DNA of 64,000 bases from assembly GCF_036588685.1 (NCBI RefSeq), contig NC_086382.1:23994001-24058000 (forward strand), read 5' to 3'. The translations under genes were made by a program, and so were the position numbers. The DNA is from Mytilus trossulus (lineage: Eukaryota). Below the pieces are notes generated by a model. That model had not been told where the DNA came from. It made no database searches and worked only from the letters and a program-made list of their open reading frames with translations. Shown piece after piece: positions 6,215-47,100 of the stretch (positions are counted from its first letter, which is position 1; every line of letters begins with the position of its first letter).

Positions 6215-7443
6215 TTATTTTCTTTTATTATATAATCGAAATAGTCTTTGGATCCTGCCCTTTAAGTACTTCATCCTCAACAACAACTGTTTATCTTGTT
6301 TAACTCCTTTTTTTCTAACAGATTTTTGTGCATTAATAACAATTACAGAAAACATATTCATTAAAAGGAACACAAATACAAATATAAACACAAGTATAAA
6401 AACAGGACCTAATTCAGGATAAATTTCAATATATTGATTAAAATTAGCTATCCTGAAAGTCCATTCCATCAGAGTCAGAAAACTGTATCCGAATGATCTG
6501 TAACCTGCTAACGAGGAGCCAAACAACAAATAACCACAACATGCAAAAGCTATCAATGAAAAAATATACATAAAAGTGAAATACTTTAAGGGTTTGTTCG
6601 CATATTCCATTATCGAAAATAAATATTTCAATTTATGAGTCAGCCTTAAAAGTTGCAGGAATTTCATCGATGCAATTGCGGTTAGCACAGCCAAAATGTA
6701 GAATAAAATGCTGTCCCATAAGATTGCTAGACTAAAATTTATGTAGCTGTTGTTACCAGAGTCTCTGTACTGACGTAGTACGATTGTTGTTCTTCTATAT
6801 CTCACTATAAATATCACAGTTGCAGTATAACACAATATTAACATGAACATGGAAAGCTTGTTCCAAAATATTTTAAAGTATGTACAAAAACCAATCAATC
6901 TTATCTTTCTGATCTCAATGAAAGTAAAAAGAAAAGTCAAAACTAAAAATATCACCTCAAACACCAACCACGTAATTTCTTCTGTAGACGAGTAGTCAGA
7001 TAAAGGCAAAGTATATATCTGATGTGATTTCGTTAGAGTACCAGGACTGCTGTACTCAAAAGCTATCAAAACTGAACTATACATATAAACATTAGGATTA
7101 TATAAAACGAATTCTATGAAAAAAGCTCTTGTTCTTATGTCAATCCATGACTTAAGATTTAACTCTGCAATCTTTGAAATAGCTGAGGAATCTGCTTTCA
7201 TATCAACTAAATAGCCACCCCCACTATATACTGCTCGATCGCCTATGTATGGCACAGAATCTAAGGCCCAACCATTTTGGTAGGACCATTCATCTTTGGC
7301 GGAGACCCCTTTTGACTGAGTCAGCCAGGACCTATTGTAATGGTTGTCGTCATCTTCTATCGAGTTCAATGAAGACGAACATTCAATACCAAGATGGTCA
7401 AAACCAAATAGTTTCTTCAACTTTTTCGGAAACTTACAGCTAT
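6215..7443 (-). CDS. Polycystin terminal exon: TOP domain, channel helices, pore, short basic C-tail
   Basis: Acceptor ttttcag at 7444; 401-aa ORF with YSGGGY, WIDIRTRA, LFGSSL..YRSF, LGP, LMNMF; stop at 6215. Confidence 0.95.
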
Positions 7444-10400
7444 CTGAAAAAAAATGTGTTCATGAATAGATGTTATATCTAGAAAGAACAATACATACTG
7501 TAAAGCGGCTTATTTTCGGGGAAGGAACACAATCGCCAAATTAAATTCCGCCAATTTAAAAGTGTACATATTGCACAGATATTGATAACACGTTTGAAAC
7601 GGCCAAAATAACAACAGCCAAAATAGTTCGTACACTTTATCAGATGAAAATCGAGAAATTTGACACCCGCGAAAATAACCCACTAAACAGAACAACATTG
7701 AAAAAGAGGAAAAAAAAAAAAAGGAGACATTACAGGAAGTATTATCACACTATAGCATGTGTAGTTTTGCGTGAGGATGACTACATGTTTTCCGTACCTA
7801 CCATGATTTTCTTAAACAGTGAATGCACTTAATTGAGGAAGCAATCCGGGTTTTGTTCTCTTTAATTTAAACAAAATTGCAGAAAAATCAAATATTAATT
7901 AGCTTTTCTTGTTAATTAGGTCTTACTATAAACGGATATGAGGTTCTCTTTTTTTTTACTTATAAAACGTTACACTTTTGGTGGTACGTCTAGGACAGGA
8001 GGAGCTGTTATTATTTTAAACACAATTTTTTTGAAGGGCTCAGTGTGCATACGTATTTTATTTGGACATTTTAACCCTATATACATGATATACAACGGTT
8101 TTATTTCTAAATTTGCAAAGTTAATATTAAACATAGACATATTCATCGTGATGCTTTAGTTGCTTCTTAATTATTCATATTTATACTATATGTTCACCCC
8201 AAGAAGATGGCATTGTTTTTACTTCAAAAGTACAACATATATTTAGTTTACAAATAATTGTGAAAAAATAATTTTACCGATTCATACACACATAACTATG
8301 GGTACATTTTAAAACATGAGGGTACTTTTTACCAAATACCGTTTTGATCCCTAACATCACTGAAGATACATTTATTGTCAAAATCCGGATCTAATGTACT
8401 AAAAAACTATTGACACATTATGTTTGTGGCATAAGATCGTGGCCACAAGTAAATTGTTTTCTGTTTAGTATTAAATTTATATTAAGATCCATTTTGTTTC
8501 ATCTTGTGATCAATTTTATTTGACAATCGCCATTGGCAGTCAGCAGGGTTAAAGAATATCAGTTGTTCGACCTGTTAGTCAAATGCGTTTTGTTTAAATA
8601 TACTTTTTCACTTTTTTGGTCTTTTGGAAAATGTTCTTTGTGCTGTTTTTAGACCCTTCTACAACGAAATTTGTTTTACATGCACACGTAAATCATAGTT
8701 TTCAATTTAGACTCGTTTATATTTTTTCGTTTGGGCTTGTATCATATTTTCCCTCCGGATTTAATGATCCGTTCATCCTATATTGACTCTTAAAATTCAA
8801 GAGTTTATCTAAAAATGAGGGCACTTTCTATATGGCCTTCCAAATACCGGTTTGATCCCTAACATGGAACTTAGTTAACATGGTTACTGTGATATGATCT
8901 TTCTAATTTTAATGCCAAATTAGAGATCTTATCCAATTTTCATGGTCCACTGAACATAGAAACTGAAAGTGCAGATTGAGCATCCGTGTACTTTGTGCAC
9001 ATTCTTGTTTTATAAACTGTTAATCTGTAAAGATGACCATATCAATGATTATTCATGGCAGCACAGAAGTGCCGGTTACTGCGATGGTGATACCCTTTGG
9101 GAATTAAAAGATATGTTTCTTAAATGGAGAATAGAGTAAGAAACTTCTGCTATGCCAACATCACCCGCACTGTTACAAGACTTTGGAGTCTTAATAAACA
9201 TGAAAAAGCCAACAGGAAGTTTAAAACCGAGTAATGTAGAAAAGTAAGGTATTCTTCTAAATATGTATCAACTATATAGTCACTGATCTCAGCTAATTTT
9301 TTTTATATTACCTGTTTGGACCCGTAACTGTTTCAAACGAAATTATCACAGTGGTGTAAATAGTTATTAGAGAAATCAGGATTGTATTTTAATACGCCAG
9401 ACGCGCGTTGCGTCTACATAAGACTCACCAGTGACGCTCATATCAAAACAGTTAAAAAGCCAAACAAGTACAAAGTTGCTAAATTTGATTTATATATTTT
9501 CTACCTACACATGTTAGAGTTGAAATTTCATTTAAAACACTTCCTTAATTTAATATAACAAATAAAACATAGAAAATCATGCTGAGTTTCATAAAAGATC
9601 TCATGTCTTGAAAATTAAAATTAAAACGTTAAAGAAATTGAAATAATTCTACGCAAAACGTGTCTTCAATGGAGAATAACGTTAAAACTTCTGCTTAGCC
9701 TACATCATTCGCAATAAAATTACCTGTTGGGACCCTTATCTGTTTCAAACGAAATTTTCCTAACAGTAGAAAATCATTTTCTGGAATCTTCTTTGACGTG
9801 TCATATGGTATTGTTCTATTCAATGGTGGTATTACACTTTCCTTGATATAAGTCCAGATATCACCACGTGTCTTTATCTGAAAAGCCATAATTAGGTATG
9901 AAATATAAAACGATGTACAAATTTGATTTTAATGTCAGCTTTTATGATATAATCAGCATAAAGAACAACCGTTGTAGTTTAAAAACGTTTGCTTTCTTTA
10001 CCTACACATTTAAATTTATTACAGTTTTTGTTAATATTTCGACTTTTTTTGAATACAGGAAACCAATTTATTGAAATGAACAATTATATTTTTTTCAGTT
10101 TGCATTAACCTTGATACTTTTTTTTTCTTGTGGCTATACGACAATGTTGGCACATTCTGTTTGATATGTTGTTTCATGTGTACTATTGTGTGTCTGTTTG
10201 TCCTTTTAATTTTTAGCCATGGCGCTGTAAGTTTATTTTCGATTTATGAGTTCGACTGTCTCCTGGTATCTTTCTCTCTTTTATACAGCTTTAATTGCCC
10301 TTTATAGTATTTACACTATTCACTTTATACCTGCTTTACTCGATAGCGAATGACACATTTTAGTATTTTCTATTTATTAAAATCATGCGTAAATCATACA

Positions 10401-13400: not shown

Positions 13401-16400
13401 GACGGGTCTTATGTAAACGAAACGCGCGTCTAGCGTACAAAATCATAATCCTTGCACTTATTAGGATTACTATTAGTGTTAAGCGTAGAAAGTCAAATAT
13501 TTTTATACTAGTTACTATTGCAAGATGAAAGAGTCTTAGATTGTATAACATATCAAACGAACAAATAAATAAGTGAGTCAGCAATATAAATAAAAGATTA
13601 GTAAATACAATAATAATATGTTTATAAATATGGTAATGAGAATACGTCAGTAAACTTACATTGATCGTTTTACTGTCACAATTGGAACCTCTCTGTTATC
13701 TGATCCTTTTTTATCACATGGCTCTGGACTGGTTACATCAATTTCCATATATCCTTCTCTACGTAGTTGTCTTGATCTCGATACCAGAAACATTTTAATG
13801 ATGACAAAGTTTATAGGAAACATAATTAAGCTACTTTCAAGACCAATGATGAAATCTTTCAGTGAAAATTCAAATTTAAAACCTGCTACATCAGAACTTA
13901 TCGTGCTTTCAGAAGGAATTCCATGGAACATTAAGCATGCCAACATAGTACACAGCAATAAAGACAATGCGCATGATAATCTTTGAACTCTCGTAAAATC
14001 ACTCCAAGGTGGTTTTGAAATTATACTGATCCACAAATGCGCTCTACGTAAATCTGTAGCTGTTCGCAGTAAAAACTGTTGCTTCATACTATAATTTGAT
14101 TCGATTGTCAGACAAACTTTGGCAGTCCCACTCTCCATTCCTAGCCAACTATCGTGGTAAAATGTATAAACTTTCGTAGTTTGTAAGTCTTGTATTAGTA
14201 CTCTCGAAAGGAACCTAAAATATATGATTCGAAATGTCTTCATTTATTTTCTGTAAAACATTAATTAATTAAATAAGATACTCATTGTATTTTAAACTAT
14301 AAATGCTAGTTAAACTATAAAAAGATAACAAATACAAAAAGAAGTCATAATAAATCATTAAAAAAACACGTTACTTAAATCCTGTCCTTTGGTATCATGT
14401 GAATCGTTCCATAAGTTATGGACAACACAACGTATCTCTTCGTCTTTTCTTTCAAAAAAAACCCACAACATGTTGCTGGTTTCGAGTCAATTAGCAAGTT
14501 CATTTAAGAAGATAACCATGAATGCATCGAAGAAAGGATTACAAAAAGGAAATAAATCCGTATTTACAAAACAGGAATGATAAGGTTTTAAAAAAATATA
14601 TTAAAAAAACGTAATACAGATTAACAATTAATTTGATATGCAAAGTGTTTCAATTCAATGTCATAAACTTGGGCCGATATTGCTGTATTGGTAAAATTTG
14701 CCATTTTTCCACAGGGTTTGTTTACCTCTAAAAGTTTTATCTTACGACAGCCTAATTATTGGGTTTGCTGTATCAATAACCATATGTACAGAAAATCTCC
14801 TTTTATCTTCATCATATTTAGCAAAAATAAATGTACAAGAAACTTAGATATGAAATTTCGCAATATGACTTATTTTTTAAAAGATTTGTTAAACAGCTGA
14901 TATTTTTTCCGTTTGCTTCCTGCATAAATTTTCATAAATGATTTTTCAAAAAAAATATTGTTTCGACTAATTATATCCATTGTACAATGTTGTATCGTTG
15001 TACTTTTTGACCTTTGTCATTAAAAACTTTTGGATGCTGTCACTTGCAAAATATGTCCAAATTTTGCTGACACAGATAATGGCTATCCAATCACAATGTA
15101 CTAGCCAACGTTTAATATAGGAAGTAAAATTTAACTCTTGAAAGGGTCTTTTTTTCAGTATACAAAATTATCTAAACAAAAATATTTTTGGTTGTTTATT
15201 ATTCCCTTCAAAGCCTCTCACAGTTATTGTAGAGATGGCAATCTTGATTTTCACTTTCTTAATGCATACAATGTCTTACCTTTATAACGATCGACATGGA
15301 AGTGATATAAAACTTATTTCTATATAAAATGTTGTTATTAAGATGTATTTTATTGTGTGACAACATAATGACCAGTTTACTTTAAAAGCGGTCATTTGAA
15401 CTTTATGAAAAAAAAGTTTGAAAATGATTTATATAAAACAAGTGTATATGTACGCGAATTTGCTCCAATTAGTAAGAAAATACTTTCTAAAATCTCATTA
15501 ATACAATTTCTAACAGAATCTTAATATATTGAAATAAACGATGTCATGCAAACCATGATGGCGAGGAACCACTGTTATCATGCCATATAACCACATTCAC
15601 AACGTCTCCTATATCATAGGAAGAAGTAATAAGAAACCAGTCTTCAGCCCCGGTTGTAAATAAAACTTGCGACGATGAGCTTCTTGTCAAACAATGTCTT
15701 GCAGTATGTCCGTGTTTGCCTTTGATATAGCATGAAACATTTGCTGTAGTTCTAGCGTCATACCGCCACCCAGTGACAATGCACATAAGATATTTAAACG
15801 GTTCTGAAGGATCACTTGAACAAGGTGTCACTATACCATCCTACAGAAGATAAGGTATTAATCAAGTCAATTATTTCATTTAAATGTCATGATAAACTAT
15901 GTTGAACTTTACAATCGTCAGAGAGCTAAAACTGGCATCCAGCGTAAAAAATCATAACATTTAGAGCATTGTCTTGTATAACTCGATTTAACTTTATACA
16001 AGAGTACACATTTAAACTTTCAATCTTATTTTTAACTACTAAAAGAAAATATGAATAGGATGAATGTAGATATAATTTTGACCTTATTATTGAATATAGT
16101 TTTTATTACAACACATTATCAAAGGATCAGTTTGTGTTTTGTTTGTATTCTAAGTTTTAGATAAATTGATTACAAACACATTTCAAATAAAAAATAAATA
16201 AATTTAGATTGAAAATCCCGTAGGCACACTTCTGTATATATTTCTTTAATATTTATAAAAGTTACTTTTTTTTTTATTTCATATGCCTCCAGTGTTTATC
16301 ATGTTTATACATCCTTGGATCTAATACTCATTGTGTTTAGTGTTTCTTAATTAAAATGAACCAAGAAGATCATGTTGAATGTGTTAAATCAACTTATAAT

Positions 16401-19400
16401 CCTTAAATATTGTTTTATTTACCAAATGTCTATCCCGCCTGTCTTTTTGTCTTGCCAAGTACAGAGCAACAAAATACATAAACCAAACCAATATTACCAC
16501 GGAAACCACAACTGGGTTTTCAAAGAATGTCAGGAATAGTAAGGCATCTTTAATCGGATCTACGAGATTAGGTAAGACAAAATACCCTCCAGCAAAATCT
16601 GTCAGATGATCAACTTCACACTCCAATTTATTGCTAGATGAAACAGGCGAAACCTGAAAAAAGTTATTTCATTTGATTATATTAGTTTGGGTACCCCTAC
16701 AAAGCATTTTTTAGCGGCAGTATTTGTTTTTTAGTTGTCATCGTGTTCGATAGTTTTTCTGTCATTTTTATCTGTACATGTATCATTGATATTAAAAAAG
16801 AAACTGAGGAAGGAATTAAAATGAGACAGGTAATTTATCCTTATAAAGATAGAAGTATAAAGATTTGAGTAGTCATGTCTTCAGAAATTGAAAAAAAACA
16901 ACCTATGGTTTGATAGAAGCTGACGCAGTCATTTCATGATATGGTGGTACAACGCATAAAGCTACACAATGCGTCTAGGAAAATAGAGACTGGAAATAGG
17001 GAACGCGTCATGGAGACAAAAGAATAATAATAGAAAAAAGTCCCGAAATAGATCTTAAACTCCACGATAAAAAAATTCAACGTATATAAATACATTTTGT
17101 TATAAGATTGTAAACAGTAATATTTTGCGTTTAAATTTCTGAAAGAGAAAATTACTTTGTCATATCAGAACAGAAATTTTCGTATCTTTAAAAAAAAAAT
17201 CATCATTATTGCGTTAAATGCTGTTTTTAGCTTACATTATTGGACATAGTTTCTCTTTTCATTACTTTTTATATATCCAGGGAGAATAATATATATATAA
17301 ATGTTAGAATTAAACAATTTAAACATACATTGTAATGAATAACTTAATATAAATAAACATCGATATAAACTGATTCATTGATTTCAATTTTGTCTGCTTT
17401 CAAGTTTGAAAAAATATCGATTCTACACCGTAACATTTTGTGATTATAATGTTCTTTTTTCTCACAGGATACCTGTATAATTTGAATTTACCTATTCTTT
17501 TATAATTTGAACGATTTATTTTTCAAACTTCAATGTTATGTTACTAGAAATACCTTAAATCGACCTGTTGTCCAACTTCCGCTAGTGGGATTCCAGGATC
17601 TACAAGTAATGGCACTCGACAAAACATTGACAGTAATATTCTGTCTAACTTTCGCATTGGTTCTACTCTCCGGATTAACGATAAGACCTATACTCCAGTA
17701 GAGCATTTCCTCCGGAGGATCTTTTATGTAGGCTGTTTCTGAGTAGTCCAGTAGCACCCCATTTTCTGCTTCAAATGGGGTAACCTTTTCTTGAAAATTT
17801 ATTGCAATGTTTATTGACACATTATTTTGTGGAGCATCTGTAATTATCTTTACCATGTAATACATGTCTGCCGGCTGTGTCACTATAAGTCGTAGAAAGT
17901 AATCTTGTATGTGATTGTTGGTATTGAAAATAAATGTGTCGTATTTTTCGTCATCTACAAAATTTTACACAGAAATAGTTGCATGAAATTTCATAAATAA
18001 ATGTACAAGAAAATATATTTCATTTAAGTTATGTCTTTTTTAAGATTGATTTTGAGACTTTCAACCTACATATTTAAAATCATAATATTTCAGAAATAAA
18101 CATGATATAACAGTTAAAATCGTCAAACAAAGTTTATGAAAATTCGGAACAGAATACTGACATGCAACATTTCTGTCATTTATGTATGCAGCTATGCACA
18201 TATAGTTATCAAAGGTACTAGGGTTATAATTAAGTACGCAAGACGCGCGTTTCGCCTACTTAAGACTCATCAGGGACGCTCATATCAAAATATTTATAAA
18301 GCCAAACAGTATAAAGTTGAAGAGCATTGAGGATCCACAATTCCAAAAAGTTGTGCCAAATACTGCTAAGGTCATCTATGCAATGCTCCGGATAAAAATG
18401 CTTAAAAGTATGTCAGTTAAGATAAATAGAATGATACACTTTTTATAGTAGAAGAGGACTTAAAGAAAGAAATTTAAATACGGAATTTTTATATTTTGTC
18501 TGAAAAGTGTGTGGTAAATAAAGTATTATCGCAAATAAAACACCAACAAAAAATACCAAATATATTTATCTATCTCTAATTACAGTTCCTGATTTAGCGC
18601 ATGTCTTATCAATTAATAACTAACATGTGATGATTGTAACAAGATGCACGAAGTATCCAAAACAAAATCACAAAAAATAAATATCTAATGGACAGAAATA
18701 AAAGCAACAAAAGTTATATGGTTAGATGTATAATATCTCAACCAATTTTTTTTCTTTTTTATATTTTCCAAATTACAGGTGATGTTTATTAATCTTCAAC
18801 ATTCAGCCTATGTTATTAAATACATATTACATGTTAAAATGAAGATATTGTATGACCTAATCAATTTTCAATATATGAAAATTTTCCTAGACTCTGACGA
18901 CGTTTAACAGGCATGTGTTATCATGGTAATTCGACATAAGTCTACATGTATTTAAATCAAATTCAATAATGAAACCCATGTTTAAGATATTCAAAATATT
19001 AACAAAAATATCGAACTCTAATAATATTAAAAAAAATCGATAAACTTGACAAAATCAAAGGCTCTATTATATCTTCAAAAGAACAAATGGAAGAAGATTA
19101 ATAAAACAGAACTATCTGTTTCTTTATTTCCTTCTTTACCTATGTGTTTACATATCATACTTACTCCCACAATTTCCAATTGGTATTTCAACAATAATAG
19201 GTTTACGTAAATTCGTCACATTGATCGTATGCTGATTGGAGTCCTTCAGAACTAAAGATACCATTGGTGAATTTATATACGCAGAAGAACTGTCCCAAGA
19301 TCTTGGATTCTGGTCTGAGAATAGCATCTGTAATCAAAACATATGCCATGCGTTATTAAGAACAGTCATTCCCAATGTCTGTCAGACATATGACAATGCC

Positions 19401-22400
19401 CTGTAATAAATAGTTTGATCCAGTTAAATGTCATCAACTACTGGACCAAAATACCAGTGAGTATGTAATAATTTTGTACTTGTTGAAATAGTCAATCGAA
19501 ATAGACTGCTTAGGCATTGACTTAACCAGTAATATTTGTAAATTTACTGAAGCAAAAACTTTTTTATAGCTCTGTTAAAGAAGTAGCAGGTAGATGACTG
19601 TATAAGCCGTATTTGGTACACCTTTTTTTTAAATTTTGGTTCTTTAATGCTATTCACCTTTGCACTTGTTTGGCTTTATAAATATTTTGATATGAACGTC
19701 ACTGATGAGTCTTATGTAGACGAAACGCGCGTCTGGCGTACTAAATTATAATCATGGTACCTTTGACAACTATTATGTAAAAATCGTTGTTTAATTATCC
19801 ATGTTATTCATGGATACATGAGCTTCTATTAATACACATTTGAGTTATAACAATGAAGTAACCAAACACCATATGTTTAATACCCAAAAGATGAAATAAC
19901 AAAAAGATTAATTTGTTTTTATTGGAGAATAGTTTAAATCTTCATATACTAGACTATTTTCAAACTGAAGTTTTTAAATGCAAATTTAATAATAAGAATT
20001 TTCAATACGTTACACGGTGGGTATGGTTGTCCTGCGAGAGAACGTACTGTGCTGGTGATATGGTCCTGACGGGTGCTGGTGATCAATGAAAAAATGTAAA
20101 CAAAGACGAAAATGATGATTTTTGACGTTTTCACTCATAAAAAATGGAAGATAATTGTTGTCAATAGGATCTATTACTCCTATTTTAGCTCTTGTGCATC
20201 TATTTGGCTGTTTAATATGTGTTTTCAAATGATTGAACTTGTATAACATAATTACACAAAAGGGCAACATCTTTCGTCCAATATCAGAGAACAATATATA
20301 GTATCTAAAATAAGAATAGTTTTATTAAGATATTAAATGCCCCTTACATTGATGTTTCAACAATGATCAAAGCCTATGCCGCATAGACATGTTTGTCAGC
20401 GCTCCGCATACCCCTCCCCACTTCAACCCAACCAACCCTCCTCATTTCCTCCTTCATTGTTACAGTGCTGTACCAACACAACATATTATCACATTAAATA
20501 ATAACACAAAGACACACATTATTGAACAACGAATGCTCGCAGGTACTGAAAGCTATTTCAAAGCCGCATTTTCAACTAATAGATAAACCATGTTCTCATA
20601 TACAAAAATCTCAATCGCGTCGATTAAAAAAGTCTCAAAACTTAAGTTCACATTTTAATGTTTGATGAAGCAGAACTTTAAAAGTGTGCATTGAATCTTG
20701 TGCTCACAACAGTTATTGTCATAATTATGTTTACATAAGACTTATAAAGGAATTAAGAAGGTACCAAGAAATGTTTTACAGTTCAATTTAATTATCATGA
20801 ATGGAAGGTGAATGGAAACTGTGAGGGTCAAAATCTTAAATTGCTTATAAATGTTGCTGGACCCAGTTTCGTAATCTGATCTGCATGTTCTGAAATGTGC
20901 ATGGAAGATAGACATTTTGATTTTTTTTACTCGGAAAGATTTGCCCTAATTGCTTGAACTTTTGCAATATTAAAGCCGATTTCGATGAGTGTGAAAACAA
21001 AGGGAATATCTTTGGTTATATTGCTTGATGAACAGAAAAGTCATTGTTAGGTTATGTAAACAACCCGACCTTAAGAGTATTCTAGTCCGACAAATGACAC
21101 ATCTTTCTGTCTGTAGGACCAGGCTACTTCGAAAGGAGGATACGGTTTGGCTAACAAGCAAGTTAACCAAAGATATTATGTTTGCTTACATACTCAATGG
21201 AATCGGCTGTAACTAAAAACTCGAATACATTTTAACAGACAGTGGTCATGTTTGTTGATGAATATTGTTTTTCCTAGATTCTCTTGAAAAATCATGTGGT
21301 AACATTTGGTCAAGTAATTTCAGAAAAGATCGTTTTGTAATTGCGGACACCAAAACAATACATGAACCTCACACGACCCCTCGACACAGGTGAGCTTATA
21401 TGATCTTATAGCGATTCAGGTTGATAACAATTTGAAATTAAGAATTCAAAAATTATGTCTCTATATTATTCATTGTCTGTGCTGTGCTGTTTTGATACTT
21501 TTGCAGTTTGCAGATTTCGTAATTGACAGGCCACAGAAGGGGTCATAAACCATACACGAAAAGATAAAATATTGATCTAAGTACTTAATTTGCATCTCTG
21601 AACCCCCACCCCGGTTTGTTTTTTAGGAGGGTGTCTAAAAATGGTCGATTACAGACAGGTGAGTAAGCATTTTACTTTCCAGGCGTGTTTACGTTGATTG
21701 TTACTGTCATGAAAACGGATAGATGGAAACAAAAATGTTTGATATATTTGGCTTTAGATTCAGTTTTTTTAAATATAAATTAAGGCTACATTTTAATATG
21801 ATAATACTAAGAATTCACAATATAAAAAAATGCAGAAAAAAATGGATGAAGTGAAATATCTTAGTAAGGAGTCATTACTACAGAGATGGTGTGTTTGACA
21901 CACAAAACATAAAAGCTTTGTGATATTACCAATATAAAAATAAAAGTGTATTTTAGTTAGGTATTTTTTCCATTTACTCATTTTCAATTATAATTAAGGC
22001 ACATTTGATTTTTGTTCATAAAAATATTTAAATATAGTAAAGTAGGACACATTGTTCACTTCCTCCCCCGTAATTCTTTATTTATTTTGGAATTTTTAAA
22101 TGAAAAAGTTAAGAAATCTTAGTTTTGTTAGTGTTCTCTAGGTTATCTCGTCTTCATTCTCTGACATATTCTAGTCTGCCCTTTCATAAAATAGTGATTT
22201 TTTTAGTGTTCTATCGAACTTTCGAAAAAATAACTGATAACCGTTCAGACAAAAAAGTTATGTTGAAAAAATATTACAGATACAGCAAGTGATTCTTAAT
22301 AGCTATAAGATTCATTTATCTTTTAAAATACAACTTTTTAATCTTAGGGGAAACCATTCCAAGCTTAAAACTTTCACTGTAACCTCGCTCTTTCTTATCC

Positions 22401-25400
22401 CCATCCCCCCCACACACACACAAAAAAACAAAAAAAAAACCGCAATAATATTGTCATTCTTATAGTCAGCCAGGGGCGTAGCTACCCGGAGGCACGACAG
22501 CACGTGCATCCACGTCGTTTTCACAACAACAACAAAAAAAAAAAACAGAAGAGAGATATGAGTTGGTTAATCGGAATCGGACAGCGTGATGTATGTATTA
22601 ACTAAGACTATTATGATTATGATATTTGTTTAACGTTCGGAGACTGTTGGAGTCTTTCCATCTATCCCGGATATTAATTTGACAACATAGTAACAAGTTT
22701 TCGAGTCATGCAGAAAAAGATCGTGGCTCCCTATACGCTAACACACAATTGCGTGCACATGGATTCGGCAAGCAAGAAAGAAATGGCAAAATAAAAATTT
22801 ATAAATTGAATGTTAAAGGAAACAACTATGTTGTCACTCTTTTTATCGATGAAATAACATTAAATAACGTTTCAAAATAATCTTTATTTTGGATGTTATG
22901 ACAAAATCGGAAGTAACTTGTATCTTTTACAAGATTTGAATTTGTAATACTAGTACTCAGTCTAAAACATGTAGTTTTGAGGCACATTTTACAGTGTACA
23001 GTTCATCAGTTTGCAATGAGATGTACCAATTGGCATTACAATTATCAGATCCCTTCGATATCGTTAAAAATATGCCGAGGCGATGTGGGCCACAGACTAC
23101 CAGAACAAATTACCCTGCAACTACGTCAAAGCAGTATTGGAAAGTCTCATTATTTTTTTTTGCGTTCATAGACCATATGATAAGGGAACTGGAGAGTGGA
23201 GTCGCGCCAAGTATTATCAGAAAGTCGCTTCTTTGCGCTGTATCTGCTTCATCGTGTTGTAGGAAAAATCACAAACGAACACATCTCAATATTGTCTGAG
23301 ACATATGAAACTGACTTGGTATGTATTTTTGGCTAGTTCGATAGGGAGGTCGCTCGATGTGCGACAAATGTACGATCAACAATGAACAACGACAGTTACA
23401 TAGAAATACTGCATATTCATCGGGACTTCAGTGTGAATATTGACAAAGTAATAGAAAAGTTTGTTTCTGCCCAGACCCGTAGAGCAGATATTGGACAGTT
23501 TTGAATAGATTCTGTATCGCAAATATGTGTTGTTTATGTATAACTCTATTCAGAAGATTTATATAATTAATAGTTTTTCATTCATGAATTTTAATTTACA
23601 TATAGCGCCTCTTTTAACCGTCCTATGACCCCAAAACCGAAAAAAAAGTTCTGCCGCGATAATAGGGTCTCAAAACTAGTTGCTTTCACGTCATTTCTTT
23701 CTAGCTACGCCCCTGTCAGCACTCAATTGTTCACAAAAAAATTAGTTTTAAGCTACTAAAGACATCCCAGTCAGCAGACTAACAGTGGGCCAACGTTGGC
23801 AAATGGTCGGCCCGTTGGTCGACCGTTGGTGTTGGCTTTACAACATTGGCCCAACGTTGGCAAATTGTCGGTCCGTTGGTCGCAAGTTTATGTTGGTTGC
23901 ACAACATTGGCTCAACGTTGGCAAATTGTCGGTCCGTTGGTCGCAATTTTATGTTGGCTGCACAACATTGGCCCAACGTTGGCAAATTTTCGGTACATTG
24001 GTCGCACGTTGGTGTCGGCTGCACAACATTGGCCCAACGTTGGTCTGTTGTTGTAAATTCATATTATTATCTCATGTTGGTTATAAATAATCGGGCATAT
24101 GTTGGCATTATGTTAGTAGCAACATAGGGCCGATATGAATTTTTTTTAATGGAATTGATTATATAATATTTTACGCTTTATTTCTCTTGGGAGGCAGATA
24201 ATTTCGATTGCAGCAGGCTTTATGAAAAGTTAATGTTATACTGAAAGTGTTTATCAACTGAAATTACATTTACAACTCTATGTTGGGCCAATGCTGGCCC
24301 AACGTTGCATGATCATATATCATACTCTATATATAAGTCAGGCAAAATTGATACTGGAATATCATTACTGTAATAAAAAAAAATGTATATCGTAAACATA
24401 GATTGCCTGGTTAAAAAATAAAATTTATTCCAATCATTATTTATTATAACTTTATTCATTAAACTTTGTGAAACATAATAATAGAAATTATATGCAGAGT
24501 GATATTTGATACAGCCAGTCTGTTAATCAAGCCCATTCTGATAAGGTTGACCATGTGTTCGACAAATTTCAAAGATAGTTGGTATGGTAATTAAGTTTAT
24601 AGGAAATCTGAATGTAATGGGATGGTCACTTTTGTGATTATTTCCTGTTGTGTATTTGTAAAAAAGCAGTGATACGAAGAAAACAAAAAGAGAAAATCAT
24701 GTCATCTGGGATTCAAAGAGAAAGATAGTAACATGTAAGTTATAACTTTAAAAAATCTGATAAATATACGATTTAGAATGATAAATACAATATGATTTTT
24801 TAATCTGAGGGATGTTGTTAAAAATCAAAACATATATTAATTTCTATCATTTTATAATGCTGATCTTGAAGTTTATACGTTTCGGGCGAAATATTTTCTA
24901 GATTTTAAATCATTTCAATCCTATTAATTATCATGAGATATTTGCCACTGAACATAAGTATCTTCAAACAAATGGTAAATTATATCAATCTTTAACCACA
25001 ACATGTATGATCATTACTGAAGTTAATGGAATAAAATTGTCTTAAGATGTACCTTATTCCGTAATGTTTCAAAAATGTGGTATAATGATTGCTACTTCAT
25101 TAAAATATAAATGAATTTGTTAGTTTTATTGTATTTCTAAATCGCATGCAAACAGATACGATATATTTGTGAAACCTGATCATATACACACTTAAATGTA
25201 TAACAGTGTTTTTATATATCAAATATATAACTGTTCATTAATACACATCTGAATTATTCTTTATATATCATGTATATTACGAATATACAAAGTATGATAC
25301 CGAATTCTGAAATAATAGTAAATAAGGGTTTGTTATACCCACAAATCCGTCTAATACTAATAAATTTCTGACCATTAGAAAAATAACCAATATAAAAAAA

Positions 25401-28400
25401 TGGTTATTTAAGATTTATTTGTATTAAATAGTATTTAAACTATTTAGAATATACATTAATTTATATTACATATCTAGAAGGGAGACTACGCACGCATGCA
25501 TTAGACAAATACGCAATTCAAGTTTACTTCTAACTTTATTACAGATTCGGTTAGAAAAAAAACATAGCTGCAAAGAGTCTTCGGATAAGGAGATGGATGA
25601 TGCAGCTAAAGATTGGCGGCGCTTAAGCCTTGACAGAGAAGGTAGCAAGAAACAGAGAAGGGAAAAACGAATAACATATATAAATAATAATGACACTGTT
25701 GAAGTTTAAATTGAGGAGGACACTACTCGTGGTGACGACCAATGATATCAAATTTAAAATAAATAAAGTTTCATCTTCTGAATTATTTAATTTTCATTCT
25801 GGATCTGGAAACAATACAGCTAAAATTACATCTCCGAAAAAACTATTTGTATGATCGCCTAACCATAAGCCATACGCCATTTGTTCTGTTAAAGAAATAA
25901 ATGAAATTAATATGAAAAAAAAAGATGTGGTATGATTGCTAATGAGACAACTCTTTACAAAACATCAAATGACACAGAGTTTATCTGGTCGATCCATCAA
26001 ACATTGTCAAAGAAATATCTTGGCGTCACACAATAAAAAAAATTAAAGAGGCAAAGTTCATGAAAAAACAAGGACAGTAACAACATGGGTAATACAAAAA
26101 TACAGAATTGCTACCTTAAACTTTGGCAGTTTGGAACACAATAAAAAAAGATCAAAGTTCTGCAGAGTATCAACGTATTGCCAACATAAAAATGAGAAAT
26201 ACCTACCTTGGACCAACATAGTGCCAACATAAGAGAAGATATTTATACGTTGGTCCAACGTTGTGCCAACATGGATTTCCTTTTTCATACAATGGGCCAA
26301 CGTTGGCTCTATGTATTGCATATAACAGTACAACGTTGGGCCAACATGAAGCCATCATGTTGGGCCAACGTAGGCCCACTTTGCACTTATACGTTGGGCC
26401 AACGTTAAAATACAACGATGGGCCAATGCAATGATATACGTTGTGCCAATGTTGGGCCAACATACTCATGTTGTCTGGGATATGATTCAAACGCTCAGAA
26501 AGTCCTTTGTTCTATATTTTTGCTCTCCATTTTTATGCAAAACCTTTTATATTTTTATGTAATGGGTTATTGTTGAAGGTATTACGATGACATATGGTTA
26601 TTAACACATACTTCCTTTGGTTTCTCATGGAAATGTGTCCATTGACAACAAACATACCACATCATCTACTTTATATAAGTATTGTATAAATTACAACGTA
26701 TTTTGGTTATCTTGCAAAATAATCGTACTCCCGAAAATTGTTAACATATTTTCTTTATCTTAAAAGGGGGCAAGAAGGGTTCCATTAACAGGCGGCCAAT
26801 GAATAAGAAAACAGTTAATTTAAAAAAAAGGAAAAAAAATAGGGGTATTTTTTCTTGCATAATAACAGTAAACGGATTCACAACAATGTCAATTTCAAGA
26901 AAGCAGGCAAGAGTTAATTAGTCATTACAGTACAGCATCAATGATCTTGAATATATGCCACTTTTAACTAAAATATAAAGGCACAGAACCAGGACATAGG
27001 AGCACAGAACCAGGACCGTTATTCTTATCACCAGCACCGCGTCAGGACAATTCCATTTAAAGAACTTGCACGACTTTTGCAATATAATATTGTTGTAATA
27101 TACTTTGCATGGTACTTATGACGCATCAGCGAAAAATTAAGCAACAAAACAGTCGTTTTATTGCCGTTCTGATACAATGTAAACAAACCCACCAGCACAG
27201 AATCAGGACCCACCAGCACCCGTCAGGACCGAATCACCAGCACAGTACGTTCTCTCGCAGGACAACCATACCCACCGTGCGTTATATGAAATTTAAACCA
27301 ATTACTAATTGGTTTTAATTTATTTCTGATGGAGACTTTAATCAAACCAGTTTTACAATTTCCACAGGCTATTTTCGAACTGATGTTTTTAAATGCAAAA
27401 GGAAACAGAAAGCATTTTTTTAAATACATACCTGAAATTTAAATCCATTGGTACTACTATCTTCAAGTTGATCTTGTAATTCTGATGGAAGTTTAAACAT
27501 ACTAGTAACAGTTTTGTTGCATATTTTTCTTGAAGTACCTATATCTGTTGAAGCGTTCGCTGATGTATTTAGTTTTGAAAGTCCAACTACTAAATTCATA
27601 GTATTTGATGTGAACTCCTTTTTGTTTGGTTCATCCTCGTTTAGAGCTTTAAGTGCAGATTCAGCTATGACATCAACAGTGTGAAGAATCTTCTCTGTTC
27701 TCTCAATCTGATATATAGATATAAAAATATGTGGTATGAGTGCAAATGAGACAATTCTCCATCTAAGTAACAATTTATAAATGTTAACCTTTATATTAGG
27801 TCAAGGTAGGGTCTTCAACACGGCGCCTAGGCTCACTTTGAACAGCAAGCTATAAAGGACCCCAAAAAATACTAGTGTACAATCATTTAAACTGGTAAAC
27901 CAACGGTCTAATCTATAAAAGTATATGAAAACCCTTATTTTGTGCGTACAATTTGGAATTTGTTTGAACGAGTCTAAATATGATGCCTTTAATTAGATAA
28001 GTAAACAATAAGCTATTAAAAAAAGTCTGTTTCATTTAGTTTTGTTTCTTTCTAAAAATACTAAAAGTCATTTCCACAATTTAGTCCAGCAGATAGGTGA
28101 ATAAGTGTTAAAAGCATAAAATTTAGTAGGAACATTCTATCTATATCTTTTAAAATAGTGGTGTTAATGTATTTATAATTTAAATTTGAAAACCTTTTTT
28201 TCTCTTTCAACTTTTTGTTCTGGTGTTTGTTCTTTAGGTTCTGATTCTTCTATTGAATGCTCGGTGTTATATTTGACAATAATATTTTCCTCAGCAATAT
28301 CAGGTTCTTGTACATGATTCAAATCCATAAGATTAGAACTGGATTCAAAAATTGATCTGAAAACAAGAATATATCCATAGTACACTGATGCCCCATCTGC

Positions 28401-44100: not shown

Positions 44101-47100
44101 ACTATATGTAAAAAAAAAACTATATTTAGTTTTCAATAGAAATAAAAAAAAAAGCATAGACATACAAAAATGTAATATAAGAGATTCCCATTCAACAGAT
44201 AATGAATGGGCGATTCTTTTAACACTAAGGTCGTCCACCAAATTCAGTTTTGGCATATTAACATTATTGACAATCTTCTTTTAATACCTATATGATAAAT
44301 CTAAACATAAGGTGCATGATTTGATAAATCTAAGCATCAGATGAAAACACATGTTTTAATTACTTTTGGTCACACTAAAAATCATTCAACTTTGTTACCG
44401 TGTGTAGACTTAAAAAATAAATAGAGACTACCTACCTCTTTACACTAAACCCACTAATGTCTACTCGAGTTACATTGAAAACAAGAACTTATTACTCATT
44501 TTAAATTTCCAGTCACAAAAATTTCATTCTCTTAAGTAATAAACTCTCTGCTCAATTGTATACGCAAGCAAGTGATGTGTTACGCTCGTGCATAATCATA
44601 CTTCTTACACAAACACTAATCCAAAACAGAAAGTTGAGGATCTACAAATTCCACACTTAAGGCGGTATGGGTGTCTTTCGCCATCTTGGATTGTAAAAAC
44701 AGAGAATCTAAGGTCCATATTTTCTATCAAGTTAGCAAAATTTGATGCAGGAATGCAATATTTAATGTGAATTTTCATTTAAAAGAACCAATTTATAAGA
44801 ATGTGACTTAGAAATATTAAATTTTTACAAGTGTAGATTATTTTTGGTTGTTTTTTGAATATTTTCAAATTGGCATTTTAAGGGGAGGTAACTCTAAAAC
44901 TGTGCATTTTCTGAAGGACTCTACATGAAATTTTCCTATTTTGTCTTTTAGCCGGAAAAAACATACGGTGACCCTATCTTTTCTTTTGATATTCTAAAAG
45001 CATTGTCTGAAAGCTATCTTTTTCTAATTTATTATACAATTCTATCATTTTGTTTATTTTCTATTCACAAAATGGTGCTTTTTCCTGTATAATCCATACA
45101 AAATTTGTCATTTTGTCACAACCTGTAGCTTGAGAAAATGCGCGGTGACCTATCATTTTTATAACATTTTTGAACATGTATCAATAGATACTACATTTTG
45201 ACAAAGTATGAACAAATTCTATCATTTTTATTTTAGACACCTATACCACCTTAAGTCAAACAGTCCCCTTCAATCAACTTACCAATACGATGCGTGTAAA
45301 TTTGATTTCTATCATGATATATTTATAGTTATTAAATCGTTTTTTGGCAGAAAAGTCGACTGATCTGTTATTGTAGCCAATTAATGATTGTGAAATGTTT
45401 CCCAACTGTAGAATTGACTTACAAATGATATATGCAACGTGTTAATACAACAGAGCTGGCTTCTCTATTTTATTTTATGCAATTCCAATAGGTCTTTTTT
45501 TTCATAAGGTATTTCATTTATTACCAGGGGGATTTCTAAGATGTTAATGTCGATAAACTATTGTTGGCTTTAATCAATACTTACTACAAAAAGGAATATC
45601 ACACATCTCTAACCGCATACTAGGGTCCATGGTATAACACCAGGGTGAAGGTTGGTCATCTTCAAAGTCTGGATGACGACAATAGTTGTGCGCATATCCA
45701 GGTGGTGGATTGAACCTATAATGCACATGAGGATCATTTGAATCCCACCTCTGACAGGGCCTGTTGTTGATAGTTATATTGACAGCTCCTCGATATTCCA
45801 TTCCTTGTGACGTCATTTTACAATCATCTTCTGCAAAAAAAAATTAATTTAGATTAAATGACAAGGTGGTAAAATTTACTAATATACTTTTCCTGATTAT
45901 GAATTGCTGAATGAAATTTCTACCAATCGTATGTTAATAGACCCGACGCCTTAATCGGAAATATAGTAAATTCAAAAGAATGTTTTGGTAGTATAAATAA
46001 TTTCTGAGACTACACTGATCTGGTTACCGGACAGTTTGCTTTTAAACTTTAAGTTTCATAAATATTTCATTTCCTTTGGACAAAAAACGACAGAACTTTT
46101 GAAAATGCTTAATTTCGAAATGCAATTAAAATCATAAAACGTTCATCTATCTTAATCTAATTAATATAAAAAGGAATCTAGAATTTTGCTAATAAATGAA
46201 TAGTTTCATACATGAAAATAGACACTTACGTATACTACAAGTATTATCATTTTCGTTGTAGTATTGGGTTGTTTCACAATCACATATACCAGCATTACAG
46301 ATGAGAGGAGTGATACAACTTCTAACTGATGTCGAACACAGGTCCTTGTGGGTTCCAACTGTAAGGAAAGTAATCAAGTATTATATTGTGATGTCTATTT
46401 TTCACTTATCTATATATTTCAATATTTTGTTCGAACAGATTATCAAATTTGAACCATCGTCAAAATATTAATATTACACCATCAATTCTCTTAATTAAAA
46501 TGAACAAAATAAAATTATATATTGATTTACAGCTTTCAAATTCACATTTCAACTTCGACGAGTGAATAGATTGAGCAACTCAAACTCTTCTAATTGTCAA
46601 GCGATTTGTATTTATACATAATGTACAAATAACACCTTGAATCGAAAATCAGTACTATCTTTCTTTGTCACCATCTGATGAAATTTTACTTTTTTTAAAG
46701 ATAAATTTGATAACCTTAACTCACAATGTAATGCTCGCTGGTAACTTTACCTTACTCATTTTGAAGTCTCCGATAATGCCTGCTCAAGTATAAAATTAGT
46801 AACAAAGGTACCAGGATTATAATTTAGTACGCCAGACGCGCGTTTCGTCTACATAAGACTCATTAGTGACGCCTATATCAAAATATTGATCAACCCAAAC
46901 AAGTACGAAGTTGAAGAGCATTGAGAATCCAAAATTTCAAAAAGTTGTGCCAAATACGGCTAAGGTAATCTATTACTGGTAATATAATTCGAGTTACGAA
47001 ATTAACGGGATTACAAAGCAGTTGTTTATAGGCGAAATAAATATCATAAAAGTCATACAGAAAATTAATGTATCAACAAATATATGTTCGATGTTAACAA

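What the first reader, a model, noticed from the sequence alone, without database searches (positions are those of the whole stretch)
20008..27284. 7.3-kb element with Transib/RAG-like ends inside the GAIN-region intron
Seen: near-perfect 69-bp TIRs start with CACGGTG, one mismatch from the RSS heptamer CACAGTG, and are flanked by an exact 5-bp TSD CGTTA. GTCCTG..GTGCTG motifs repeat in the TIRs and recur at 26980-27047. A 31-bp direct repeat (19954-19984 vs 27369-27399, 29/31 identical) lies outside the two ends and would be only 143 bp apart in the empty site. Excision would shrink the 8104-bp intron to ~830 bp. Established: CAC termini with 5-bp TSDs characterise Transib and RAG-like transposons. 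Inference: a fairly recent non-autonomous insertion, implying an autonomous partner elsewhere in the genome. No transposase is visible inside.
Basis: partly seen in the sequence, partly recalled or inferred. Interest (0 to 1): 0.72.

Follow-up and report, generated by a model that had tools for sequence, protein, structure and literature searches.

The report
Gene-less mussel transposon, RAG link unsupported
This is one copy of a roughly 430-copy jumping DNA element that carries no enzyme gene, sits in an intron of a polycystin-like gene and is absent from that spot in other sequenced DNA; its ends only loosely resemble the antibody-recombination signal, and the enzyme that moves it was not found and is likely not RAG-like.

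Summary
Observation confirmed: 69-bp TIRs (67/69), 5-bp TSD CGTTA. The element belongs to a non-autonomous family with 859 ends in this genome; 47 of 56 paired copies have an exact 5-bp TSD. Two of six laid runs carry the empty site with one CGTTA and both 31-bp repeats, so that repeat predates the insertion. The 7.3 kb is a deleted 4.4-kb copy plus two nested transposons (1.2 and 2.7 kb). The Transib/RAG label is not established: targets are AT-rich (23% GC, flanks 33%), the TIR lacks the Transib nonamer and the RAGL AAA block, no RAG1 core was found, and unrelated 9.5-25-kb elements with a RAG1-N-terminal-like domain also make 5-bp TSDs here. No partner was proven. Best candidate (about 40%): a clan of about 1,400-aa YqaJ-containing, weakly P-like transposases; Transib about 30%. 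The scan reported a CACGGTG-ended gene-less element (e1-9943308) and the P-like clan (e1-9089250, e1-9079674) before on other DNA of this genome. Ordinary as an insertion; modest interest.

The parts
20008..20012 (.). Left copy of the 5-bp target site duplication CGTTA
   Evidence: single copy in the empty site
20013..20081 (+). Left 69-bp TIR, starts CACGGTG, holds GTCCTG and GTGCTGGTG motifs
20082..22470 (+). Non-coding body of the 4.4-kb subfamily, left part; this copy has lost about 350 bp after base 148 (including the inner left motif cluster) and about 1.1 kb at about 21443
   Evidence: blastn against 40 copies; copy L076; motif map
20083..20110 (+). Subterminal motif also found upstream of a YqaJ/P-like transposase ORF (L277)
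22471..23715 (.). Nested element 1, 1245 bp, 14-bp TIR CAGGGGCGTAGCTA, 5-bp TSD TCAGC (hAT5-like by ends only; label inferred)
   Evidence: absent from the other copies
23716..23765 (+). 50 bp of the host element left between the two nested insertions
   Evidence: contiguous in L076
23766..26479 (.). Nested element 2, 2714 bp, CCCAG..CTGGG ends, 2-bp TSD AT, 61-bp subterminal tandem repeats (EnSpm-like by ends only; label recalled)
   Evidence: absent from the other copies
26480..27210 (+). Non-coding body, right part, with inner motif cluster at 26980-27047 and 27187-27210
27211..27279 (-). Right 69-bp TIR
27280..27284 (.). Right copy of the TSD CGTTA
19954..19984 (+). 31-bp direct repeat, copy 1; host intron sequence older than the insertion
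   Evidence: present with copy 2 in empty-site contigs
27369..27399 (+). 31-bp direct repeat, copy 2
19328..27431 (-). Predicted 8104-bp intron of a PKD1-like gene (832 bp without the element); lies upstream of the PLAT and channel exons
   Evidence: Pfam PLAT 15547-15840, PKD_channel 6218-7459, Kringle 45577-45843; GAIN itself not detected by Pfam on single exons

Best explanation
The element is one copy of a high-copy, gene-less DNA transposon with 69-bp inverted ends and a 5-bp target duplication, missing from this site in two other data sets, and it was likely cut and pasted here by a transposase encoded elsewhere that is likely not RAG-like. Shown: ends, TSD length, copy number, empty site, two later nested insertions, no coding capacity. 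Inferred from DDE-transposase biology: the enzyme binds the repeated GTCCTG/GTGCTGGTG motifs at both ends, excises the element and joins it to an AT-rich target with a 5-bp stagger that the host repairs into the TSD. My committed guess for the enzyme is the clan of about 1,300-1,500-aa transposases with an inserted YqaJ exonuclease domain and weak P-element similarity. About 0.97 for the element, about 0.4 for that partner.
For: Element: 753 exact 26-bp ends, control 0; 859 ends with a relaxed pattern, 429 forward and 430 reverse; 40 of 40 first-fetched copies paired, 35 with exact 5-bp TSD; 47 of 56 overall; older copies at about 75-93% identity also show 5-bp TSDs; empty site in X8 and X1; subfamily majority sequences have no ORF over 125 aa. 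Partner: a 27-bp left-subterminal motif recurs about 300 bp inside a putative CACGG end upstream of clan ORF P0156 (score 38; reached by 0 of 300 shuffles and 0 of 600 genomic windows; the exact 16-mer occurs once in 941,405 bases of non-family loci, there); a clan fragment lies 5,977 bp inside a family end on C6; L279 has a putative CACAGT end with repeated subterminal motifs; the clan has open frames of 1,331-1,494 aa in this genome.
Against: No autonomous copy with these TIRs was seen. The TIRs of L277 and of this family do not align beyond chance (169 of 300 shuffles reach the score), and the motif match was found post hoc. The C6 co-location has a chance probability of 0.2-0.3, could not be fetched, and may lie beyond the element's other end. 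None of the clan's long open frames lies near a listed end (about 581 of roughly 900 ends listed). A profile of 29 clan proteins finds no remnant in 66 family sequences (best E 0.49). Three clan upstream regions (L279-L281) share nothing with the family. The clan's TSD was not measured here, its P-likeness is below Pfam cut-off (E 0.003-0.026) and there was no PDB sequence hit.
Confidence: 0.45

Rival explanations
1. The family is a non-autonomous Transib, moved by a roughly 500-700-aa Transib transposase that is rare, diverged or lost from this assembly.
For: CAC termini and a strict 5-bp TSD are the classic Transib hallmarks (PMC1131882, passages). Pfam can miss Transib: the Nozomi transposase gave no InterPro hit (10.64898/2026.08.26.747230, passages), so searches do not exclude it. 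The same preprint reports that TSD and TIR traits vary within Transib. I recall that the HzTransib end starts with the same eight bases; not verified.
Against: TSD GC 22.6% against 33.1% in flanks (47 sites), opposite to the GC-rich preference. TIR positions 31-39 read CGTACTGTG, not an A-rich nonamer. Only one Transib ORF was found in a mollusc-wide survey (PMC10294476, passages). 5-bp TSDs are not unique to Transib in this genome.
Confidence: 0.3
2. The partner is a sister lineage of the Chapa-domain (RAG1 N-terminus-like) transposases that are recently active in this genome and make 5-bp TSDs.
For: 26 PF12560 matches; multi-copy families of 990-1,142 aa at 95-99.8% DNA identity; exact 5-bp, mostly AT-rich TSD in 5 of 6 delimited copies.
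Against: All delimited families start CAGTC, not CACGG. The family TIR is absent from 20 loci, 10 regions extended to 29.8 kb and 10 more divergent loci; 0 of 68 listed hits lie within 30 kb of a listed end; no remnant in the copies.
Confidence: 0.12
3. The family derives from a RAG-like (RAG1L-RAG2L) transposon, as known from oysters and other mussels.
For: 5-bp TSD and CAC start; RAGL elements, also non-autonomous ones, occur in bivalves (PMC7204232, passages).
Against: The protostome RAGL end consensus CACTWMCAAACKTYKBB with AAA at 8-10 (PMC7204232) is not matched: positions 8-10 are GGT. PF12940 finds no RAG1 core (best E 7.33), although its control rang nowhere. RAG2L was not searched.
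Confidence: 0.04
4. The two ends belong to independent insertions or the TSD is chance.
For: None; the interior is a mosaic of repeats.
Against: Both halves are colinear with single 4.4-kb copies and the empty site joins 20007 to 27280 exactly.
Confidence: 0.01

Closest known systems
Non-autonomous Transib elements (Kapitonov and Jurka 2005, PMC1131882; passages read)
   Same: CAC termini, strict 5-bp TSD, no coding capacity, many copies
   Different: AT-rich rather than GC-rich targets; no heptamer-23-nonamer layout; no Transib transposase linked; 2.9-4.4 kb mosaic body
Protostome RAGL transposons (Martin et al. 2020, PMC7204232; passages read)
   Same: Bivalve host, CAC start, 5-bp TSD
   Different: End does not fit CACTWMCAAA; no RAG1 core found in the genome
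Chapaev / CMC(T) group (PMC4079192, PMC12730594, PMC4411706; passages read)
   Same: CAC..GTG termini; the wider CMCT clade spans 2-5-bp TSDs
   Different: Chapaev TSDs are given as 3-4 bp; the Chapa-domain elements of this genome have CAGTC ends
P superfamily (P element, THAP9); features recalled, listings only seen
   Same: CA start, repeated subterminal binding motifs; candidate partner clan shows weak similarity to Pfam PF21787
   Different: P elements make about 8-bp TSDs (recalled); the candidate clan carries a YqaJ domain inside the protein and its link to this family is unproven

Membership tests
Non-autonomous TIR DNA transposon | Paired terminal inverted repeats | tested here: met
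   67/69 in the window; 40 of 40 fetched copies paired
Non-autonomous TIR DNA transposon | Fixed-length TSD made on insertion, single in the empty site | tested here: met
   47 of 56 exact 5 bp; empty site
Non-autonomous TIR DNA transposon | Dispersed copies without transposase | tested here: met
Transib | 5'-CAC termini | tested here: met
Transib | 5-bp TSD | tested here: met
Transib | GC-rich target preference | tested here: not met
   TSD GC 22.6%, flanks 33.1%, 47 sites; feature from PMC1131882
Transib | Heptamer, 23-bp spacer, A-rich nonamer in the TIR | tested here: not met
   positions 31-39 are CGTACTGTG, positions 20-28 CCTGCGAGA
Transib | Transib transposase between the same TIRs | not testable with these tools
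   no Transib seed or Pfam family available; PF12940 negative is not sensitive for Transib
RAGL transposon | End consensus CACTWMCAAA with AAA at 8-10 | tested here: not met
   end reads CACGGTGGGT; consensus from PMC7204232
RAGL transposon | RAG1L core in the genome | tested here: inconclusive
   no match at E 0.001, best E 7.33; control genomes also negative
RAGL transposon | Convergent RAG2L gene | not tested
   no search made
Chapaev | 3-4-bp TSD | tested here: not met
   exact 4-bp match in 1 of 56, 3-bp in 5 of 56; feature from PMC4079192
Chapaev | Chapa-domain transposase between the same TIRs | tested here: not met
P superfamily / YqaJ-containing P-like clan | Clan transposase between the same TIRs | tested here: inconclusive
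   one fragment 5,977 bp inside an end, chance 0.2-0.3; shared motif
P superfamily / YqaJ-containing P-like clan | About 8-bp TSD of canonical P elements (recalled) | tested here: not met
   0 of 56 copies match at 7 or 8 bp
P superfamily / YqaJ-containing P-like clan | P-type RNase H fold of the candidate enzyme | tested here: inconclusive
   PF21787 below cut-off; no PDB sequence hit; no structure model obtained

The most novel reading that the evidence does not exclude
The family is the gene-less partner of an unclassified lineage of about 1,400-aa P-like transposases with an inserted YqaJ exonuclease that has reached RSS-like CAC ends and 5-bp TSDs independently of Transib/RAG. With the CAGTC-ended Chapa-domain giants, bivalves would then hold at least two non-Transib lineages with 5-bp TSDs, and end-plus-TSD calls of RAG kinship in invertebrates would be unsafe.
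Probability: 0.35. Interest if true: 0.55.

Novelty: new member of a known kind. Interest (0 to 1): 0.27.

Why it matters
As an insertion it is ordinary: an intronic presence/absence polymorphism in a PKD1-like gene, usable as a population marker. The wider point is diagnostic. CAC ends with a 5-bp TSD are widely read as a Transib/RAG signature; here that signature comes with AT-rich targets and no detectable RAG core, in a genome where another clan also makes 5-bp TSDs. If the YqaJ/P-like clan proves to be the partner, it would be a testable case of convergent end and target geometry, with hundreds of natural insertions as read-out.

Tried and rejected
Partner searches that led nowhere: PF12940; PF12560 and Chapa-like proteins (ends checked in 34, 41, 53); DUF6589 PF20231 (10 loci checked, 9 DUF6589 and 1 Chapa-type, none with this TIR; three delimited ones begin TAGTC); PF02992, PF21787, PF09588: nearest listed end 16 kb away; nine P-like or YqaJ loci fetched, none with the TIR. 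The 17.6-kb copy on C1 is a standard copy with nested inserts. Twenty copies of the older subtype, 13 variant-end loci and their extra internal segments are non-coding. 128 ORFs of transposase loci hit only nested inserts by tblastn. TIR pattern: 0 in viral contigs and genome contigs, one 3.2-kb metagenome contig holding a 3.1-kb copy. Runs X2, X3, X11 and X14 showed no listed piece across the site; that is no evidence either way. Two papers (N-RAG-TP, HzTransib structure) were not held, so those end sequences were not compared. Paper searches listed no description of this family or of a P-like YqaJ lineage; Repbase itself was not searchable and no supplements were read, so prior cataloguing cannot be excluded. 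Rejected: a role of the 31-bp repeat in insertion; independent ends.
Full report
Observation. The element runs 20013-27279 (7,267 bp). Its 69-bp TIRs agree at 67 bases, and of flank lengths 2-10 only 5 bp match, CGTTA. The GTCCTG and GTGCTG motifs, the inner cluster at 26980-27047 and the 31-bp direct repeat (29/31) are as described. A GT..AG intron of 8,104 bp (19328-27431, minus strand) joins two exons in frame; a second AG 18 bp further also keeps the frame. Pfam on 36 window ORFs finds PLAT, polycystin and PKD-channel exons downstream and a Kringle exon upstream, so the host is a PKD1-like gene; GAIN was not detected on single exons. A transposase of this genome is 98% identical to a protein named from Mytilus, so the organism is taken to be a Mytilus mussel.

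The family. An exact 26-bp end occurs 753 times in the 1.30-Gb genome, the reversed control 0 times; a relaxed 23-mer gives 859 ends, 429 forward and 430 reverse, about 430 elements. All 40 copies fetched first had both ends, 35 with an exact 5-bp TSD. Over 56 paired copies (including the window's and one metagenome contig) 47 are exact at 5 bp; matches at 2, 3, 4, 6, 7 and 8 bp number 4, 5, 1, 2, 0 and 0. Of the nine others, three have one mismatch, one has two left ends and one has inverted flanks. Lengths run from 0.4 to 17.6 kb with modes near 3.1 and 4.4 kb. Ends differ from the majority by a median 2.8%, closest pairs by 0.3-0.6%; the window's right end is 4.7% from the majority. An older subtype (55 ends; about 75-93% identity) also shows 5-bp TSDs. 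The family has therefore moved over a long period and recently.

Anatomy of this copy. It is a 4.4-kb-type copy with two deletions and 4.0 kb of later insertions: a 1,245-bp element with a 5-bp TSD and a 2,714-bp element with an AT TSD, both absent from copy L076. One deletion removes the inner left motif cluster seen in intact copies. No ORF exceeds 119 aa; majority sequences of the two subfamilies have none over 125 aa.

Empty site. Six runs were laid. A 430-bp contig of X8 joins 20007 to 27280, and a 382-bp contig of X1 runs from the first repeat copy through the left-flank letters into 27280 with one difference in 239 bases. Both hold one CGTTA and both 31-bp repeats, so the TSD was made by the insertion and the repeat is older host sequence. 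X1 may be the sample the window was assembled from. The other four runs had no listed piece across the site.

Is it Transib or RAG-like? CAC ends and 5-bp TSDs fit. Other defining traits do not. TSDs are 22.6% GC against 33.1% in flanks, whereas Transib and RAG prefer GC-rich targets (PMC1131882, passages). TIR positions 31-39 are not A-rich, and positions 8-10 are GGT, not the AAA of protostome RAGL ends (PMC7204232, passages). PF12940 finds no RAG1 core, but its control rang nowhere and a true Transib gave no InterPro hit in a recent preprint (10.64898/2026.08.26.747230, passages), so Transib stays open. A mollusc survey found one Transib ORF (PMC10294476, passages). The 5-bp TSD is not diagnostic here: PF12560 gave 26 matches, among them recently copied elements of 9.5 to 25 kb with single ORFs of 990-1,142 aa whose N-terminus resembles RAG1's (PDB 21wb, E 5e-5); they start CAGTC and have an exact 5-bp TSD in 5 of 6 delimited copies.

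Search for the partner. None of the Chapa-domain, DUF6589, Transposase_21, PF21787 or PF09588 hits lies within 16 kb of 399 listed ends or within 27 kb of 182 further ends; about a third of the ends were never listed, and each family search scored only its best candidates. Two earlier notes of this scan pointed to a P-like transposase with an exonuclease. I found that clan: P0156 and relatives of about 1,300-1,500 aa with YqaJ and sub-threshold PF21787 similarity, with open frames up to 1,494 aa in this genome. Three weak links tie it to the family. A 27-bp subterminal motif recurs about 300 bp inside a putative CACGG end upstream of P0156 (0 of 300 shuffles, 0 of 600 genomic windows; once in 941 kb). 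A clan fragment lies 5,977 bp inside an end on C6, with a chance probability of 0.2-0.3 for 81 clan loci (the clan was compared with all 182 new ends but only a hand-picked nearest subset of the 399 earlier ones). L279 has a putative CACAGT end. Against: the TIRs themselves do not align beyond chance, no coding remnant exists in 66 family sequences, L279-L281 share nothing with the family, and the clan's TSD and fold were not determined.

Mechanism. Shown: a mobile, gene-less TIR element that duplicates 5 bp of AT-rich target. Inferred: a DDE transposase made elsewhere binds the repeated motifs at both ends, excises the element and inserts it with a 5-bp stagger. Partner odds: YqaJ/P-like clan about 0.4, Transib about 0.3, Chapa-domain sister about 0.12, RAGL about 0.04, the rest other or lost. 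No effect on the host gene is shown; the intron grows from 832 to 8,104 bp.

Verdict. Real and correctly described, ordinary as an insertion, and not shown to be Transib or RAG-like. New member of a known kind; interest 0.27. Papers were seen as passages (PMC7204232, PMC4411706, PMC4079192, PMC12730594, PMC1131882, PMC3014272, PMC8355894, PMC10294476, PMC1852546 and the Nozomi preprint) or as listings; no supplement was read, and Repbase entries, which may already hold this family, could not be searched.

Noticed in passing
G000 C1:28.20-28.23 Mb (L141, L160, L161), C5:82.17-82.19 Mb (L147), C5:51.22-51.23 Mb (L154), C8:68.25-68.27 Mb (L136): Recently copied 9.5-25-kb transposons with one 990-1,142-aa ORF carrying a RAG1-N-terminal-like (Chapa) domain, CAGTC termini and 5-bp TSDs (5 of 6 exact). 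Nearest atlas clusters are mollusc DUF6589 proteins (score 0.89), whose elements here start TAGTC with about 10-bp duplications. The published Chapaev TSD is 3-4 bp, so this may be a distinct lineage worth its own study.
   Followed up: partly
L119 (G000 C9:7,301,607-7,304,623): A family copy flanked by a 345-bp inverted duplication at 99.8% identity instead of a TSD; fits an aberrant transposition or repair event, or an assembly artefact.
   Followed up: partly
L064 (G000 C11:55.57 Mb): A 3.7-kb copy with two left ends and no TSD.
   Followed up: no
G000 C5:73-84.5 Mb (L198-L211): Old copies of the family (79-83% identity) with an identical flank, multiplied by large segmental duplications together with a 66-bp satellite.
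   Followed up: partly
L277, L279-L281; G000 C10:11.58 Mb, C4:8.62 Mb, C6:82.80 Mb, C6:50.63 Mb, C11:11.61 Mb: A clan of about 1,300-1,500-aa YqaJ-containing, weakly P-like ORFs at about 81 loci; ends and TSDs not delimited.
   Followed up: partly
window 22471-23715 and 23766-26479: Two nested non-autonomous elements, 50 bp apart, of other multi-copy families (depth); not classified by a transposase.
   Followed up: partly
window 19954-19984 and 27369-27457: The direct repeat looks like the remnant of a short duplication at the exon-intron border; run X14 shows a similar repeat 160 bp apart.
   Followed up: partly
window 6218-45843, minus strand: PKD1-like gene with a Kringle exon far upstream on the same strand; whether the Kringle exon belongs to the same transcript was not tested.
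   Followed up: no
L100:4975-5967 and L116:1454-2447: Two copies share the same 1.1-kb insert with a 330-aa frame that looks by eye like the end of a non-LTR retroelement: a subfamily that moved after gaining the insert.
   Followed up: no
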